Source: a phage
Direction: 5' to 3' (one strand)
Length of the DNA stretch: 64,000 nt
Sequence record: PX915676.1
Under the pieces are notes generated by a model. The model worked only from the letters and a program-made list of their open reading frames with translations. It searched no databases and was not told the DNA's origin. Shown one piece after another: positions 13,169-34,981 of this stretch. A program made the translations under genes and the position numbers. Position 1 is the stretch's first letter, and each line of letters begins with the position of its first letter.

Positions 13169-13244
13169 GCGCTCTTAGCTCAATGGATAGAGCAGTAGCC
13201 TTCTAAGCTATTGGTTACAGGTTCGAGTCCTGTAGGGCGCACCA
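13169..13244 (+). tRNA. tRNA-Arg (anticodon TCT)
   Basis: Hand-folded cloverleaf: acceptor GCGCTCT/AGGGCGC, D-stem GCTC/GAGC, anticodon stem GTAGC/GCTAT with loop CTTCTAA, T-arm ACAGG-TTCGAGT-CCTGT, discriminator A and encoded CCA. Confidence 0.85.
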
Positions 13245-29484: not shown

Positions 29485-30798
29485 ATGATTGTTATCCCGA
29501 TTAACCAAATTGAAGATAAGGTTGCTCAACAACCTGATATCACTGTTGGTCGTCACTTCATTGAACAGTTGATTAACAACAACTTGATTCCAGATGGTAT
29601 CTGTCCCATCATTACTGGTGGGGCTGTTCGTGATGCTGTCCTTAATAACATAGCTCCACATGACATTGATATCTTTATTGTCAGAGGACAAACACCAAGA
29701 ACTCAAAACACTTTCATCCCAACTGATCGTTGGCAAGAGCTTGGACGGGAGATTGAAAGTAATGTGAAGGAATGGCTAGAGTCACAAGATATTGAATATG
29801 CATCACTTCTTGCTGAAGCTACAAACGAATCCTATGCTGGGGGTTCTCAATTAACATTCACTGATATTATTGAGTTTCAGTGGAATGGGGTTCGTATCCA
29901 ATTCATGTTTAATTATCCTACTTCTATTGAAGAGGTATTGGATAATTTTCCTATGATGTGCCGTGGTGCGATGACTCTTGACAACTTATTCATGACTTCT
30001 CACGGATATTTGGCTATGACTTCCCCTTGTCCAGTGGTTGTCTCTAGTCGTGAAATCAGGTATGTTCACAAGAAGTGGCCTAACTCACAAGTGTTGAGAT
30101 TTTCCTCTCCAGCAGTTGCGCATCAATACATGGCCCAAACTCGATATCTTCCCACACCTCAGCCAGTTAGTCATCTAGTCAATGGATTAGGTCAGGTTTC
30201 TCTTATTGAAGATACAACAAGTGCTCTATATTGTGTTAACCGAGACATGAGTCGATTCTTTGGAATCCCTTATGAAGAGATTCAGATTATGTCTAGTCTT
30301 CACGGTTCTGGTCAGATTCATGCGTATTGGTCTGAGGGGTTGACAAATTTAACGACTAACACGGGTGGTGATCTGCTTGGTCGAGAAGAGGAACCTAACC
30401 GACACAATGCAATTGAAGGGGTGTTTGTAGCCCCTGCAATGCGTCGAGCACAAGAGTCACGAAGAGAAAGCCCTACTCGTAGAACATCTTTTGAAGAAGC
30501 TCTTGGTATTACAAGTGATTCTATGGAGCGATGGATGGCTAGACCCTCTCGTGGTCGACCAAACGGCTTAACTGTTAGCGCACGTCAGTTCTCTGGTCAG
30601 GGTTTCGCTGTTGGTGATATCAACGCCCCTTCTCGTGTTATCTGGACTGATGAAGGTATGGAACAAGATTTGGGAGATAGTCTCGCTGATCGCTTTATTG
30701 CTAACAACCCTGAAGTATTAGAACCTCAAACCCGTACAGTTCGGTTTGCCGATGAAGCGGGTCGTGGAATCTCTTTTGACATGGAAACAAATAACTAA
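29485..30798 (+). CDS. polymerase beta-superfamily nucleotidyltransferase (CCA-adding/poly(A) polymerase-like head domain)
   Basis: ITGGAVRDAVL...HDIDIF matches GGxVRD and DxD motifs of class II tRNA nucleotidyltransferases; remaining 350 aa unrecognised. Confidence 0.55.
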   Translation: MIVIPINQIEDKVAQQPDITVGRHFIEQLINNNLIPDGICPIITGGAVRDAVLNNIAPHDIDIFIVRGQTPRTQNTFIPTDRWQELGREIESNVKEWLESQDIEYASLLAEATNESYAGGSQLTFTDIIEFQWNGVRIQFMFNYPTSIEEVLDNFPMMCRGAMTLDNLFMTSHGYLAMTSPCPVVVSSREIRYVHKKWPNSQVLRFSSPAVAHQYMAQTRYLPTPQPVSHLVNGLGQVSLIEDTTSALYCVNRDMSRFFGIPYEEIQIMSSLHGSGQIHAYWSEGLTNLTTNTGGDLLGREEEPNRHNAIEGVFVAPAMRRAQESRRESPTRRTSFEEALGITSDSMERWMARPSRGRPNGLTVSARQFSGQGFAVGDINAPSRVIWTDEGMEQDLGDSLADRFIANNPEVLEPQTRTVRFADEAGRGISFDMETNN

Positions 30799-30807
30799 GG
30801 AATAAGA

Positions 30808-31341
30808 ATGAGTTTACTAGGAAGTATTGAACTGCATGATGTAATTGACAATGGCTATCTGGATGCGGAGCATAAGTATGTTAACGCTGCTAGTGTGGAT
30901 ATCCGTATTGGTGATACTATCCTTGTTGAAGAACAGGCTGATGGCATCGTTGATATTGATGCGAAAGAGAATCTTCAGTGGAAGGAAGTAAAGATTCCTG
31001 AAGAGGGTTTGGTTATCACTCCGGGTCAGTTCTTCTTGGCTCACTCTATGGAGGAGTTTAACCTTCCAGATAACATCTCAAGTCTGTTTGTTCTGCGTTC
31101 GTCTATGGCTCGTTGTGGTTTGAACCACCTTCACGCCGGTTGGGCAGATGCAGGATTTAATAGCAGTAAGCTGACATTTGAATTCCATAACGTAACCAAG
31201 CACCACAGCTTACGAGTTCGTGCTGGTATGCGTGTTGGTCAGATGGTTATGTTTGAGCACTCTCATGCAGGGGAACACTCCTATGCAGTGAAGGGTCGTT
31301 ATAATAACTCTGAAGGTGTGGTTGCATCTAAAGGTGTGTAA
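30808..31341 (+). CDS. dCTP deaminase family protein
   Basis: ASVDIRIGD and AGWADAGFNSSKLTFEFHN resemble dCTP deaminase/dUTPase motifs. Confidence 0.75.
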   Translation: MSLLGSIELHDVIDNGYLDAEHKYVNAASVDIRIGDTILVEEQADGIVDIDAKENLQWKEVKIPEEGLVITPGQFFLAHSMEEFNLPDNISSLFVLRSSMARCGLNHLHAGWADAGFNSSKLTFEFHNVTKHHSLRVRAGMRVGQMVMFEHSHAGEHSYAVKGRYNNSEGVVASKGV

Positions 31342-32029: not shown

Positions 32030-32359
32030 ATGTTAGATTTGAGTAAAGTGGCCCCGCCCACTGAAGAGATTACAAAATCCAAGGTGATGCAACAGTTTTA
32101 TCATCGTGATATGCTTGGTCGCTTTATCAAGAATCGTGATGTTGTTGCTTGGTCTATTGGTAATCAGGGATATCTGTTGAAGGTTCTTCAGGTTACAGGT
32201 TCAACTGCTAAGCGAGTTAAGGTGTATGACCCTGAAATGGGGCGTTCTAAGTCAGTAGACCCACAGAACTGCATCGTAATTACCCAGCAGGTAATGGATA
32301 ATATTGCACGTAATGTTGCTAACTCAGTTGAACTTGATGGAGAAAACCCAAATGCATAA
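32030..32359 (+). CDS. hypothetical protein
   Basis: Track ORF 109 aa. Confidence 0.55.
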   Translation: MLDLSKVAPPTEEITKSKVMQQFYHRDMLGRFIKNRDVVAWSIGNQGYLLKVLQVTGSTAKRVKVYDPEMGRSKSVDPQNCIVITQQVMDNIARNVANSVELDGENPNA

Positions 32360-32915
32360 GAATGTCTTTGATTTACCTGAGATTGGTCGTGACAGTTATA
32401 GTATGTTAGACCGGTCCGACCTATCAATCTCTCGCCTTGAAACGATGCAAGGTATGATTAGTGGAAACAGCCTAGAACACATCCTGAGCTGCTTACAAGC
32501 TAACATGGAACTCTTGCATATCAAAGCTAAAAACTACCACTGGAACGTCTCTGGTGCAGGATTTCAGGGTGTTCATGGTATGTTTGATGAGCTGGAAGAT
32601 TACGCACGACAGGTAGGAGATCGTATTGCTGAACGTATGCGTTACCACTGTGTTAAAGTGGATGCTACAGCAGCTAACTACCTCTCTCATTCTTGGTTCT
32701 CAGAGGGTAATGCTGATCTAGACATGGACGGTATGCTCTCTGATATGTGCATGACCTTGATGTGTATTATTGAGAAGATGGATGAGTTTGATGGTGATTT
32801 AGCCACCTACCCTGTCGATCAGAGTATGCTTCAAGAAATTAATGAAGGTCTTGGCAAGTATTGCTACTTCGTCAAGAGCAACATGTCCCATTCAAGTGGT
32901 GACGTGTCTTACTAA
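32352..32915 (+). CDS. Dps-like ferritin-fold protein
   Basis: Track ORF trimmed to ATG 32352 with GGAG SD; LHIKAKNYHWNVSGAGFQGVHGMFDELEDYARQVGDRIAER matches the Dps ferroxidase-site helix pattern. Confidence 0.65.
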   Translation: MHKNVFDLPEIGRDSYSMLDRSDLSISRLETMQGMISGNSLEHILSCLQANMELLHIKAKNYHWNVSGAGFQGVHGMFDELEDYARQVGDRIAERMRYHCVKVDATAANYLSHSWFSEGNADLDMDGMLSDMCMTLMCIIEKMDEFDGDLATYPVDQSMLQEINEGLGKYCYFVKSNMSHSSGDVSY

Positions 32916-33164: not shown

Positions 33165-33440
33165 ATGTCTAAAGTAATTAAGTTTTATAGTGATCAGTGT
33201 GCTCCATGTAAAGCAATGGCTCCTACCTTTGAGAAGGTTGTTAAGGAGTTTGATGTAGAAGTGGAAGAGATTAACATCCTTGAAGGTGATGGTCGTGAAC
33301 AAGCTGTTAAGTATGGTATACGAAGCATCCCTGCTTTTGTTGTGCCTGACCGTAACAGTGGTGCACACTACAGCCTCTCCGGTATGCAGACTGAAGCAAA
33401 CCTGAAAGCATTTTTGGACACAGCCCTGAGAAATAAGTAA
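33165..33440 (+). CDS. thioredoxin/glutaredoxin-fold protein (CxxC)
   Basis: Track ORF; active-site-like CAPC near N-terminus, about 90 aa. Confidence 0.7.
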   Translation: MSKVIKFYSDQCAPCKAMAPTFEKVVKEFDVEVEEINILEGDGREQAVKYGIRSIPAFVVPDRNSGAHYSLSGMQTEANLKAFLDTALRNK

Positions 33441-33455
33441 TAAGGATATTCACGG

Positions 33456-34112
33456 ATGAATGAACAACTACAAGCAACATTAATCGAAGCTATGGGAAGT
33501 GATCGTAGCGTAGTAAACGCAGCTCGAGTTTCCTTTGGCGTAACCCGTGAAGGTGATTTAAATGAACGTGATGAACGTCTCATCAACTTCCTCGCACGGG
33601 AAAAACACTGTACCCCATTCCGACACCCGCAAGTCAGCTTCCGATGCAAAGCACCTATTGCAATTGCGAGACAGCTGGGCAAGCATCAGGTTGGATTCTC
33701 GTGGAACGAAATGTCCCGGCGGTATAAAGATGGAGCAGTTGAAGTCTTCATCCCTAAAGAGATTTTTGCGAGACCTTCGGACCTCCATGCAGGTTCAGGG
33801 ATTCAACTCATCGACGGAGAGCGAGCTGAAGCATTAATGCTGATTAACGATGCATATGAAGCTTCTCTAGCAGCATATGACAAGTTGATTGAATTTATTG
33901 CACCAGAGCAAGCTCGATTTGTTCTTCCTCAGGGGATGATCACTGAGTGGGTGTGGACCGGTTCTTTGTATGGCTGGTTTGAGTTGTGTCGTCAGCGACT
34001 CTCCTCTCACGCTCAATATGAAGTTCGAGTGTTTGCTAAATCTGTAGACGAAGAGATGGCTAAGATCTACCCAATCTCGTGGGCAGCCCTGAAGAAAACT
34101 TTGGAGAGTTAA
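33456..34112 (+). CDS. thyX: flavin-dependent thymidylate synthase ThyX (variant motif)
   Basis: AARVSF, TPFRHPQVSFRCKAPIAIARQ, SWNEMSRRY and SHAQYEV match ThyX blocks; canonical RHR triad reads KHQ here. Confidence 0.8.
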   Translation: MNEQLQATLIEAMGSDRSVVNAARVSFGVTREGDLNERDERLINFLAREKHCTPFRHPQVSFRCKAPIAIARQLGKHQVGFSWNEMSRRYKDGAVEVFIPKEIFARPSDLHAGSGIQLIDGERAEALMLINDAYEASLAAYDKLIEFIAPEQARFVLPQGMITEWVWTGSLYGWFELCRQRLSSHAQYEVRVFAKSVDEEMAKIYPISWAALKKTLES

Positions 34113-34261
34113 TATTGGAAGAAGATGATGATGATGTGTTCTGCACCAAGTGCGGAATGACAGTGGATGATGCATATGACCCAAGTGTAGAAATTTGTCC
34201 ATGTTGCGGGGTATGTGAGTATTGCTGTTCTCATAATCCAGAGGATTAGCAGGAATTTCTG

Positions 34262-34495: not shown

Positions 34496-34661
34496 CTTCT
34501 GTAAGAAAGAGAAACCTATCGCCAACTTCAAACCTAACCCTGTAACTGGTCTGACCCATGTCATGTGCCACTCTTGCAGGATATATCTTGAAACAAAGCA
34601 CACTATCAATAGGTTGCACTATTATCACCCAACAACATTCAAATTTAAGGTTGTGAAATGA
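34476..34661 (+). CDS. small zinc-ribbon protein
   Basis: Track ORF trimmed to ATG 34476; CSFC...CHSC. Confidence 0.45.
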   Translation: MEKKVCSFCKKEKPIANFKPNPVTGLTHVMCHSCRIYLETKHTINRLHYYHPTTFKFKVVK

Positions 34662-34981
34662 TTGACAGTAATACATTTAGGACTTCAAATGGAAGTGAAA
34701 TAAGTCCCGCTGAAGTAATCAATCGGCATAGAAGGCAATTGATCATCCATTCCTACTTGTATTACTGGTTGGATGACCCTATCTGGTCTGATGATAAATG
34801 GCAACAAGTTGCTAATGATCTAGCGGAGCTGCAAGCTCTGTATCCAGAACCTACTGGAGTCTTTGACAACGAGTTTAAAGATTGGGATGGTTCTACAGGT
34901 ATGCATCTCCCACATAACGAAGCTGTTGCTTGTATGGCGACAGCTGTTTACAGACTTCATAAAGAGGTTAACGTCGCATGA
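34658..34981 (+). CDS. hypothetical protein
   Basis: Track ORF 107 aa. Confidence 0.55.
   Translation: MIDSNTFRTSNGSEISPAEVINRHRRQLIIHSYLYYWLDDPIWSDDKWQQVANDLAELQALYPEPTGVFDNEFKDWDGSTGMHLPHNEAVACMATAVYRLHKEVNVA

What the first reader, a model, noticed from the sequence alone, without database searches (positions are those of the whole stretch)
33456..34112. ThyX with KHQ in place of the canonical RHR motif
The protein is clearly ThyX-like across several blocks, but the signature RHR triad that contacts the dUMP phosphate reads K-H-Q (KHQVGFSWNEMSRRY). This may be tolerated divergence or may indicate altered substrate or activity.
Basis: partly seen in the sequence, partly recalled or inferred. 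Interest (0 to 1): 0.35.

Follow-up and report, generated by a model that had tools for sequence, protein, structure and literature searches.

The report
Phage ThyX with variant KHQ motif
This is the already-annotated flavin-dependent thymidylate synthase (ThyX) of a phiEco32-like E. coli phage, and its K-H-Q in place of the textbook R-H-R is the conserved signature of a large ThyX subfamily that several bacterial lineages also carry on their chromosomes, so it is most likely an ordinary working enzyme.

Summary
ORF 33456..34112 (+, 218 aa) is a ThyX (Pfam Thy1 1.2e-43; TIGR02170 128 bits against a cut-off of 87.9; model TM about 0.8 to T. maritima ThyX). K76-H77-Q78 align to T. maritima R78-H79-R80, with one extra residue (F81) before the conserved Ser. 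No RHR occurs elsewhere in the protein.

It is not an isolated anomaly. The window is a Kuravirus (phiEco32-like) phage, and the gene is 97-99% identical to deposited genes annotated as thyX. The block KHQxGxxx[NS]ExSRRY is present in 119 of the 120 closest protein clusters, down to 54% identity. It also dominates a very large metagenomic subfamily.

The same motif type sits in syntenic housekeeping positions in four bacterial lineages: Nitrospinaceae, Chloroflexota/Dehalococcoidia, Spirochaetia and Poribacteria.

The other residues I mapped from T. maritima as substrate-contacting or catalytic are all kept: H51, R72, Q73, E85, S87, R89, Y90, R154 and R181. The changes cluster at flavin- and phosphate-contacting positions. 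A subfamily-wide extra Arg (R88, giving SRRY instead of SGRY) is a plausible compensator, but this is inferred.

Best reading: a functional thymidylate synthase that, with the phage dCTP deaminase, feeds dTTP to a 42% GC genome. Altered chemistry is not excluded but nothing supports it. No enzyme of this motif type turned up as assayed or solved in my searches. Interest is low.

The parts
33456..34112 (+). thyX coding sequence (218 aa plus stop), orthologue of phiEco32 phi32_64
   Evidence: ORF; Pfam Thy1 1.2e-43; TIGR02170 above cut-off; 97.7% identical to the phiEco32 gene annotated as thymidylate synthase; AF2 model pLDDT 90.7 with Foldseek TM about 0.8 to T. maritima ThyX.
33442..33446 (+). 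Shine-Dalgarno-like AAGGA, 9 nt upstream of the ATG
   Evidence: Read directly from the sequence.
33681..33689 (+). Codons AAG-CAT-CAG = K76-H77-Q78, at the position of the canonical R-H-R triad
   Evidence: Alignments to T. maritima and T. thermophilus ThyX. KHQ is present in 119 of the 120 closest clusters.
33696..33698 (+). F81, the one-residue insertion that lengthens the spacer from X7 to X8
   Evidence: Gap in the T. maritima and T. thermophilus rows. An insertion at this point is seen in most of the more distant representatives.
33714..33725 (+). S87-R88-R89-Y90. S87, R89 and Y90 match T. maritima S88, R90 and Y91. R88 replaces G89 and is the candidate compensating arginine.
   Evidence: S, R and Y are invariant; R at the G89 position occurs in 117/120 close and 120/126 more distant relatives. 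In PBCV-1 ThyX the residue-89 side chain can occupy the dUMP phosphate pocket (PMC3498832). The compensating role is inferred.
33621..33623 (+). R56, at the position of T. maritima E58. This charge reversal is specific to the close clade.
   Evidence: R in 118/120 close relatives but only 27/126 more distant ones. Its functional meaning is inferred only.
33165..33440 (+). Thioredoxin gene ending 15 nt upstream of thyX, probably co-transcribed
   Evidence: Pfam Thioredoxin 2.7e-13; orthologue of phi32_65.
30808..31341 (+). dCTP deaminase, the likely upstream step supplying deoxyuridine nucleotides
   Evidence: Pfam DCD 3.6e-34; TIGR02274 107.6 bits against a cut-off of 92.8.

Best explanation
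The ORF encodes a functional flavin-dependent thymidylate synthase (ThyX/FDTS) of a phiEco32-like (Kuravirus) phage. It belongs to a large ThyX subfamily, common in phages and also chromosomal in several bacterial lineages. In this subfamily the textbook RHRX7S motif is replaced by [K/R]-H-x-x-G-x-x-x-[N/S]-E-x-S-R-R-Y. The expected chemistry is the established ThyX reaction. NADPH reduces the bound flavin, CH2-H4folate passes its methylene to flavin N5, and the flavin passes it to C5 of dUMP and then reduces it, giving dTMP and H4folate. Residues mapped from T. maritima are all present: H51, R72, Q73, E85, S87, R89, Y90, R154 and R181 (their individual roles are from my own knowledge of the T. 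maritima structures). K76 keeps the positive charge of the first Arg. Q78 can still hydrogen-bond. The lost guanidinium of the third Arg is probably supplied by the subfamily-specific R88 next to the catalytic-loop Ser. In the phage, dCTP deaminase together with host dUTPase supplies dUMP, and ThyX raises dTMP supply for a 42% GC genome replicating in a roughly 51% GC host. Shown here: family membership, fold, residue conservation, subfamily-wide conservation of the variant, and chromosomal syntenic occurrence. Inferred: catalytic activity, the compensating role of R88, and the pathway role.
For: Family and fold. Mapped active-site residues kept while changes cluster at FAD/phosphate contacts (R80 to Q, R165 to Y, N163 to S, E58 to R, G89 to R). 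Purifying selection: KHQ plus spacer plus SRRY in 119/120 closest clusters down to 54% identity, and these hits were chosen by overall similarity, not by motif. Both synonymous codons are used for K, H and Q across 52 loci. Subfamily breadth: 66 of the top 150 50%-identity representatives have KHQ and only 1 has RHR; 103/120 relatives of a Spirochaete ThyX are KHQ type. Housekeeping use: KHQ-type thyX lies between acrB and ispH in 4 Nitrospinaceae species. It lies beside the pyruvate dehydrogenase complex in 5 Chloroflexota/Dehalococcoidia species, where the adjacent E2 protein is only 48-73% identical. It lies beside citrate synthase, an SDR and pyrF-pyrE in 2 Spirochaetia, and is syntenic in 3 Poribacteria-type loci. 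The query matches 61 of 69 columns that are at least 90% conserved in non-Kuravirus KHQ-type proteins. Pathway context: dCTP deaminase 2 kb upstream; GC 0.40-0.45. Residue 89 can reach the dUMP phosphate pocket in PBCV-1 ThyX.
Against: I found no KHQ-type ThyX that has been assayed or solved. All PDB relatives shown in residue-level alignment (T. thermophilus, T. maritima) are RHR type, and so is mycobacteriophage L5 gp48. PMC3498832 counts T. maritima R80 among direct dUMP contacts, so its loss is not trivially neutral. Eight otherwise conserved subfamily positions differ in this phage, mostly in the flexible loop 95-112. Gordonclarkvirinae are reported as unusually resistant to restriction-modification systems with no known DNA-modification pathway (PMC11990801), which leaves room for unconventional nucleotide chemistry.
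Confidence: 0.84

Rival explanations
1. Neofunctionalised ThyX homologue. The enzyme keeps the flavin/folate one-carbon transfer but releases something other than dTMP, for example 5-hydroxymethyl-dUMP by hydration of the exocyclic methylene intermediate, or it acts on another pyrimidine nucleotide. The product would feed a DNA modification that explains the restriction resistance of these phages.
For: Gordonclarkvirinae are reported as remarkably resistant to restriction-modification systems without a known modification pathway, and the authors suspect a covalent DNA modification (PMC11990801). The genome carries an uncharacterised 437-aa 'nucleotidyltransferase' with no Pfam or NCBIfam match. 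The annotation of a close relative lists a dNMP kinase and amidoligase-type genes. The triad changes and eight clade-specific departures lie near the substrate loop. EcoRV, EcoKI and EcoP1I sites are not depleted in the window, so site avoidance cannot explain resistance to those enzymes.
Against: The KHQ motif is not specific to these phages. It is the chromosomal thyX type in four bacterial lineages, in housekeeping and syntenic contexts. All uracil- and phosphate-contacting residues outside the triad are unchanged. The protein scores above the curated thyX equivalog cut-off. Strong avoidance of CCWGG (2 observed, 84 expected), CTGCAG (0 vs 16), GGATCC (1 vs 10) and GATC (147 vs 251) suggests the DNA is exposed to restriction at ordinary bases. 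To my knowledge no ThyX-family hydroxymethylase is known.
Confidence: 0.07
2. Same reaction but altered cofactor handling. Loss of T. maritima R80 and R165 equivalents weakens or changes binding of the ADP part of FAD, for example FMN use, looser flavin binding or a different reductant, possibly linked to the adjacent thioredoxin.
For: The substitutions fall at positions the literature assigns to FAD phosphate and ribityl contacts: the RHR triad and the residue equivalent to M. tuberculosis R190 / H. pylori R165. A thioredoxin gene sits 15 nt upstream. A glutaredoxin gene sits directly upstream of thyX in Rheinheimera phage Barba6A and Roseobacter phage CRP-118.
Against: T. thermophilus ThyX, a solved enzyme, already has His at the R165 position. 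Redoxin adjacency is not general: only 3 of 49 genome loci carry a glutaredoxin within 6 kb and none carries a thioredoxin match. Phage thioredoxins have other known roles; the SU10 paper calls its orthologue replication-related.
Confidence: 0.07
3. Catalytically dead remnant or pure nucleotide-binding protein.
For: Two of the three residues of the signature triad are changed.
Against: There are 42 invariant and 22 nearly invariant columns across 36 relatives down to 42% identity, including every mapped catalytic residue. The ORF is intact in more than 60 phage genomes at 95% identity or above. The same motif type is kept in syntenic chromosomal positions across deep bacterial divergence.
Confidence: 0.02

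Closest known systems
Canonical ThyX/FDTS, Thermotoga maritima TM0449 (PDB 1kq4, 1o26 and others)
   Same: Same Pfam and TIGRFAM family, same fold (Foldseek TM about 0.8, 32-34% identity) and same length class. Matching residues: H53/H51, R74/R72, Q75/Q73, E86/E85, S88/S87, R90/R89, Y91/Y90, R147/R154 and R174/R181.
   Different: R78 to K76, R80 to Q78, a one-residue insertion (F81), G89 to R88, E58 to R56, N163 to S170 and R165 to Y172. No structure or assay exists for the variant type in the material I could search.
Thermus thermophilus Thy1 (PDB 6j61), the best sequence match among solved structures
   Same: E=2.9e-31 over residues 8-215. It shares a longer substrate-loop region than T. maritima.
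   Different: It carries RHRTA-SVNEISGRY, the canonical triad and spacing, and an extra C-terminal domain.
phiEco32 gp64 and other Kuravirus/Gordonclarkvirinae thymidylate synthases (e.g. NC_010324 phi32_64, SU10, Bas90_0061)
   Same: 97-99% identical protein with the same neighbours: thioredoxin, a Dps-like protein, dCTP deaminase and PhoH. This is the same gene.
   Different: Nothing material. These entries are annotated by similarity only. A full-text search for phiEco32 together with ThyX found no paper.
Chromosomal KHQ-type thyX of Nitrospinaceae, Chloroflexota/Dehalococcoidia, Spirochaetia and Poribacteria genome assemblies
   Same: Identical motif architecture, KHQ-xG-xxx-N-E-x-SRRY, at 40-48% identity to the query.
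   Different: They sit among housekeeping genes and are syntenic across species. They keep a W-R-x-R-P-x3-K-Q-G-S loop that in the phage reads I-F-A-R-P-S-D-L-H-A-G-S.
PBCV-1 A674R, the structurally characterised viral ThyX (PDB 2cfa, 4fzb)
   Same: A viral ThyX. Its residue 89 next to Ser-88 reaches the dUMP phosphate pocket (PMC3498832), which is the basis for the R88 compensation idea.
   Different: It is only distantly related (E about 1e-7) and has Gln, not Arg, at position 89.

Membership tests
ThyX / flavin-dependent thymidylate synthase (PF02511, TIGR02170) | Full-length match to the family profile above the curated cut-off | tested here: met
   PF02511: 149.5 bits against a cut-off of 24.8, profile positions 1-190 of 191. 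TIGR02170 equivalog: 128.1 bits against 87.9. PHROG thymidylate synthase families.
ThyX / flavin-dependent thymidylate synthase (PF02511, TIGR02170) | ThyX fold | tested here: met
   AF2 model with mean pLDDT 90.7 and pTM 0.85. The top 50 Foldseek PDB hits are all ThyX chains, with TM 0.73-0.83.
ThyX / flavin-dependent thymidylate synthase (PF02511, TIGR02170) | Literal signature motif RHRX7S (attributed to Myllykallio et al. 2002 in PMC2826268) | tested here: not met
   The protein reads K76-H77-Q78-X8-S87, and no RHR occurs elsewhere. The literal motif also fails in syntenic chromosomal thyX genes of four bacterial lineages and in many isolated phages. I therefore treat it as a description of the first-studied members rather than a requirement. 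Membership rests on the profile, the fold and the other mapped residues.
ThyX / flavin-dependent thymidylate synthase (PF02511, TIGR02170) | Substrate-contacting and catalytic residues outside the triad (T. maritima H53, R74, Q75, E86, S88, R90, Y91, R147, R174) | tested here: met
   H51, R72, Q73, E85, S87, R89, Y90, R154 and R181 are all present, and all are invariant or nearly invariant in relatives.
ThyX / flavin-dependent thymidylate synthase (PF02511, TIGR02170) | Homotetramer with bound FAD and active sites built from three subunits | not testable with these tools
   Only a monomer model without ligands could be made.
ThyX / flavin-dependent thymidylate synthase (PF02511, TIGR02170) | dUMP to dTMP activity dependent on NADPH and CH2-H4folate, or complementation of thyA | not testable with these tools
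   This needs an experiment. No published assay of a KHQ-type enzyme was found.
ThyX-derived enzymes with another substrate (PolB-type UMP/dUMP C5-methylase of polyoxin biosynthesis; recalled from memory) | Biosynthetic gene-cluster context and changed nucleotide-recognition loops | not tested
   The context here is a phage replication and nucleotide-metabolism module. I did not obtain a residue-level comparison with that enzyme.

The most novel reading that the evidence does not exclude
The Kuravirus ThyX-like enzyme does not make plain dTMP. It would make a modified deoxyuridylate, for example 5-hydroxymethyl-dUMP, that is built into phage DNA. It would act together with the phage dCTP deaminase and uncharacterised nucleotidyltransferase (both in the window) and the dNMP kinase and amidoligase genes annotated in close relatives, and it would account for the unexplained restriction resistance of Gordonclarkvirinae. 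To my knowledge this would be the first ThyX-family enzyme feeding a DNA hypermodification pathway.
Probability: 0.05. Interest if true: 0.75.

Novelty: already known. Interest (0 to 1): 0.15.

Why it matters
For this window it matters little. The gene is a known, annotated phage thymidylate synthase and the motif difference is a subfamily trait. Two modest points are still useful.

First, the literal RHRX7S motif is too narrow. Filters based on it would discard a very large, mostly phage-borne and marine ThyX subfamily; PMC2826268, for example, removed ThyX homologues that deviated from the motif by more than two residues. In this subfamily the third triad position is free to vary (Q, K, T, H, V, M, N, E).

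Second, no enzyme of this subfamily turned up as solved or assayed in my searches. One complementation test and one structure would show how dUMP and FAD phosphate binding is rebuilt, which bears on ThyX inhibitor design.

A conserved ThyX also argues against the published suggestion that Gordonclarkvirinae DNA carries uracil in place of thymine.

Tried and rejected
1. I looked for an experimentally studied ThyX with the KHQ motif. Mycobacteriophage L5 gp48, which I recalled as characterised, turned out to be canonical (ERHRHLSFSVVSQRY). The solved relatives printed residue by residue, T. thermophilus and T. maritima, are RHR type.

2. Literature. A full-text search for phiEco32 together with ThyX returned no paper. 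Searches for phage ThyX assays returned only general ThyX papers. One search for Arg78/Arg80 returned irrelevant papers. Liu and Yang 2004, Stull 2016, Ulmer 2008 and Savalia 2008 are not held. The Korf 2019 and SU10 papers say nothing on the phage's DNA composition or on ThyX.

3. Naming more distant relatives. The cluster look-up gave almost no organism names. The one useful result was that an RHR-plus-insertion-plus-SRRY form comes from Petrotogaceae. The search seeded with the Spirochaete ThyX returned only unnamed metagenomic proteins.

4. I tested whether thioredoxin or glutaredoxin next to thyX is a general trait of the subfamily. Only 3 of 49 genome loci had a glutaredoxin nearby and none had a thioredoxin match, so I dropped it as a general functional link.

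5. I considered E58 to R56 as the compensating change. It is confined to the close clade, with R in only 27 of 126 more distant relatives, so R88 is the better candidate.

6. Pseudogene or artefact was rejected, because the ORF is intact in dozens of independent phage genomes.

7. I could not check whether thyA is absent from the bacterial genomes with KHQ-type thyX.

Full report
**What is there**

The window is a phiEco32-like podophage (genus Kuravirus, subfamily Gordonclarkvirinae). A 12-kb stretch around the finding is 94-97% identical over its full length to Escherichia phages FS2B, DE5, SkaterBoy_Bas90, SU10 and others.

It is 97.7% identical to phiEco32 gp64, which is annotated as thymidylate synthase. 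It matches Pfam Thy1 at 1.2e-43 across the whole profile and scores 128 bits against the NCBIfam thyX equivalog model, whose cut-off is 87.9. An AlphaFold2 model (mean pLDDT 90.7) superposes on T. maritima ThyX chains with TM about 0.8. Minus-strand ORFs overlapping the gene appear in the mechanical ORF list, but nothing supports them as genes.

**The motif**

Alignment by phmmer to solved structures and by MAFFT with 246 relatives agree. K76-H77-Q78 occupy the positions of T. maritima R78-H79-R80. One residue (F81) is inserted before S82. S87, R89 and Y90 match S88, R90 and Y91.

**What the triad does**

The review PMC6514825 says the RHR residues hydrogen-bond the AMP phosphate, the ribityl and the FMN phosphate of FAD. 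The first Arg also touches the isoalloxazine ring and dUMP. PMC3498832 lists T. maritima R78, R80, S88 and R90 as direct hydrogen-bond partners of dUMP.

**What is kept and what is changed**

These residues mapped from T. maritima are all present: H51, R72, Q73, E85, S87, R89, Y90, R154 and R181, plus Q187 and E189. All are invariant or nearly invariant among relatives. Their individual roles are from my own knowledge of the T. maritima structures; the papers I read confirm only the dUMP contacts of R78, R80, S88 and R90.

The differences from T. maritima and T. thermophilus cluster at flavin- and phosphate-contacting positions:
- R78 to K
- R80 to Q
- R165 to Y
- N163 to S
- E58 to R
- G89 to R

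The residue equivalent to T. maritima R165 is described as an FAD contact in M. tuberculosis and H. pylori. It is already His in the solved T. thermophilus enzyme, so that position is not a strict requirement.

**It is a subfamily signature, not an anomaly**

- **Closest relatives.** Among the 120 closest protein clusters, chosen by overall similarity down to 54% identity, 119 carry KHQ, a six-residue spacer and E-x-S-R-R-Y.
- **Wider sampling.** Among the 150 best representatives at 50% clustering of a 1.84-billion-protein library, 66 have KHQ with the same spacing and only one has RHR. The others have KHK, KHT, RHT, RHQ and so on.
- **Pattern across the subfamily.** The first position is K or R, the middle is H (sometimes S), and the third is free to vary (Q, K, T, H, V, M, N, E). 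Arg at the G89 position is nearly universal, in 120 of 126.
- **Isolated phages.** They show the same spread. Aeromonas LAh_9 and Vibrio BA6 have KHQ. Rheinheimera Barba6A, Roseobacter CRP-118 and the Acinetobacter phage Ab2712 (family Schitoviridae) have KHK. Bacillus Leo2 and Streptomyces Starbow show no recognisable triad in my pattern match. Synechococcus S-ESS1 and mycobacteriophage L5 have canonical RHR.
- **Codon usage.** Both synonymous codons of K, H and Q are used across 52 loci. The genome loci among them were selected by the motif pattern, so this shows long divergence rather than independent evidence of conservation.

**Evidence that the variant works**

A pattern scan of one genome per species found 49 loci encoding relatives of the query around a [FA][VIL]ARQLxKHQ match. 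Several are phage-like or prophage-like (L027, L036 and L043, judged by eye from the ORF map). Others sit in plain housekeeping contexts that are syntenic across species:
- **Nitrospinaceae (4 species):** thyX lies between acrB and ispH.
- **Chloroflexota/Dehalococcoidia (5 species):** thyX lies next to the pyruvate dehydrogenase E1/E2/E3 genes, where the adjacent E2 is only 48-73% identical.
- **Spirochaetia (2 species):** thyX lies next to lipoamide dehydrogenase, citrate synthase, an SDR and a pyrF-pyrE fusion. One of these is a 1.79-Mb chromosome.
- **Poribacteria-type loci (3)**.

Linkage kept across that much divergence means vertical inheritance of a useful gene. The simplest useful function is thymidylate synthesis. 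I could not confirm that these genomes lack thyA.

The phage protein agrees with 61 of 69 columns that are at least 90% conserved in the rest of the KHQ group. The eight departures (V29, A69, I70, V95, I103, F104, H111, A112) lie mostly in the flexible loop 95-112.

**Likely mechanism**

The shown parts are family, fold, residue conservation and context. The rest is inferred. The enzyme probably runs the standard ThyX reaction. K76 keeps the charge of the first Arg, and Q78 can still donate and accept hydrogen bonds. R88, adjacent to S87, may supply the missing guanidinium. In PBCV-1 ThyX the side chain at position 89 can occupy the dUMP phosphate pocket, so the geometry is plausible.

In the phage, a dCTP deaminase lies 2 kb upstream (TIGR02274 above its cut-off). 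The genome is 40-45% GC, against roughly 51% in E. coli (general knowledge). Shifting dC nucleotides toward dT is a sensible role.

**The modified-DNA alternative**

The BASEL paper reports that Gordonclarkvirinae are remarkably resistant to restriction-modification systems. [quoted passage not shown] A conserved ThyX argues against uracil DNA. A ThyX-like enzyme making a modified deoxyuridylate cannot be excluded by sequence.

Against that reading, the KHQ motif is not special to these phages, and all base-contacting residues are unchanged. The window also strongly avoids several restriction and methylation sites:
- CCWGG: 2 observed, 84 expected
- CTGCAG: 0 observed, 16 expected
- GGATCC: 1 observed, 10 expected
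- GATC: 147 observed, 251 expected

Such avoidance is the pattern expected of DNA that restriction enzymes can read. I give the modified-nucleotide reading about 5-7%.

**Comparison with what is known, and novelty**

The gene itself is already known and annotated. It fails the literal RHRX7S signature but passes every other membership test I could run. Because chromosomal thyX genes fail the literal motif in the same way, the motif definition is too narrow rather than the protein being an outsider. One phylogenetic study explicitly removed ThyX homologues that deviated from RHRX7S by more than two residues (PMC2826268). That filter may help explain why this subfamily is little discussed.

**Verdict**

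'Tolerated divergence' is supported, at the level of a whole subfamily. 'Altered activity' is unsupported but not excluded. Interest is low.

Noticed in passing
window 1-64000: Several restriction and methylation sites are strongly avoided: CCWGG 2 observed vs 84 expected, CTGCAG 0 vs 16, GGATCC 1 vs 10, GATC 147 vs 251, GAATTC 8 vs 23. GATATC (31 vs 16), the EcoKI site (7 vs 6) and AGACC (99 vs 113) are not depleted. Expectations come from 100 first-order Markov simulations. This bears on the reported restriction resistance of Gordonclarkvirinae.
   Followed up: partly
window 29485-30798 (+): A 437-aa protein annotated 'nucleotidyltransferase' in relatives lies between the polymerase exonuclease subunit and dCTP deaminase. 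It has no Pfam or NCBIfam match and hits only PHROG 12715. The BASEL authors single it out as a possible DNA-modification enzyme.
   Followed up: partly
window 33165-33440 (+); L054 1-228; L055 71-310: A thioredoxin gene ends 15 nt before thyX in this phage. A glutaredoxin gene sits directly upstream of thyX in Rheinheimera phage Barba6A and Roseobacter phage CRP-118. No ribonucleotide reductase is annotated in the 30-77.5 kb part of the related phage Bas90 that I read. The adjacency is not general across the subfamily.
   Followed up: partly
window 24803-26922 (+) and the annotation of relative Bas90 (L060): There is an early-gene cluster of amidoligase-type enzymes. In the window: a RimK-like 'S6 glutaminyl transferase' (PHROG hit only, no Pfam) and a gamma-glutamyl cyclotransferase. 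In the relative's annotation: a GlmS-like aminotransferase, an 'amidoligase' and a 'COOH-NH2 ligase'. Their substrate is unknown.
   Followed up: no
window 34658-34981 (+): The 107-aa ORF annotated 'DNA ligase' in relatives matches only the N-terminal NAD+-binding subdomain (Pfam Nlig-Ia, 3.7e-35). It cannot be a complete ligase.
   Followed up: no
window 34079-34249 (+): A small Cys-rich ORF (56 aa as listed, with CxxC...CxCC...CxxCC) overlaps the 3' end of thyX. It corresponds to phi32_63 and weakly matches a PHROG labelled 'membrane protein'.
   Followed up: no
window 32304-32915 (+): A Dps/ferritin-like protein lies in the replication module (Pfam Ferritin 2.6e-07). The SU10 paper detected its orthologue and the thioredoxin by mass-spectrometry proteomics.
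   Followed up: no
relatives: hit H67 (Vibrio phage pVa5, NC_049379 46893-48287); P0122, P0136, P0193: Some thyX relatives are interrupted or much longer. The pVa5 match is in two pieces spanning about 1.4 kb with an HNH endonuclease annotated inside. Several representatives are 350-640 aa with two matched stretches. This suggests introns, inteins or fusions in this subfamily.
   Followed up: no
window 13169-13244 (+): A single tRNA-Arg (anticodon TCT) was found. A tRNA-Arg is also annotated in the relative Bas90.
   Followed up: no
L003 (Herbiconiux daphne scaffold796, 526 bp): A 526-bp contig in an actinobacterial genome assembly encodes a fragment 68% identical to this phage ThyX (also P0111). 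It looks like phage contamination of the assembly rather than a bacterial gene.
   Followed up: no
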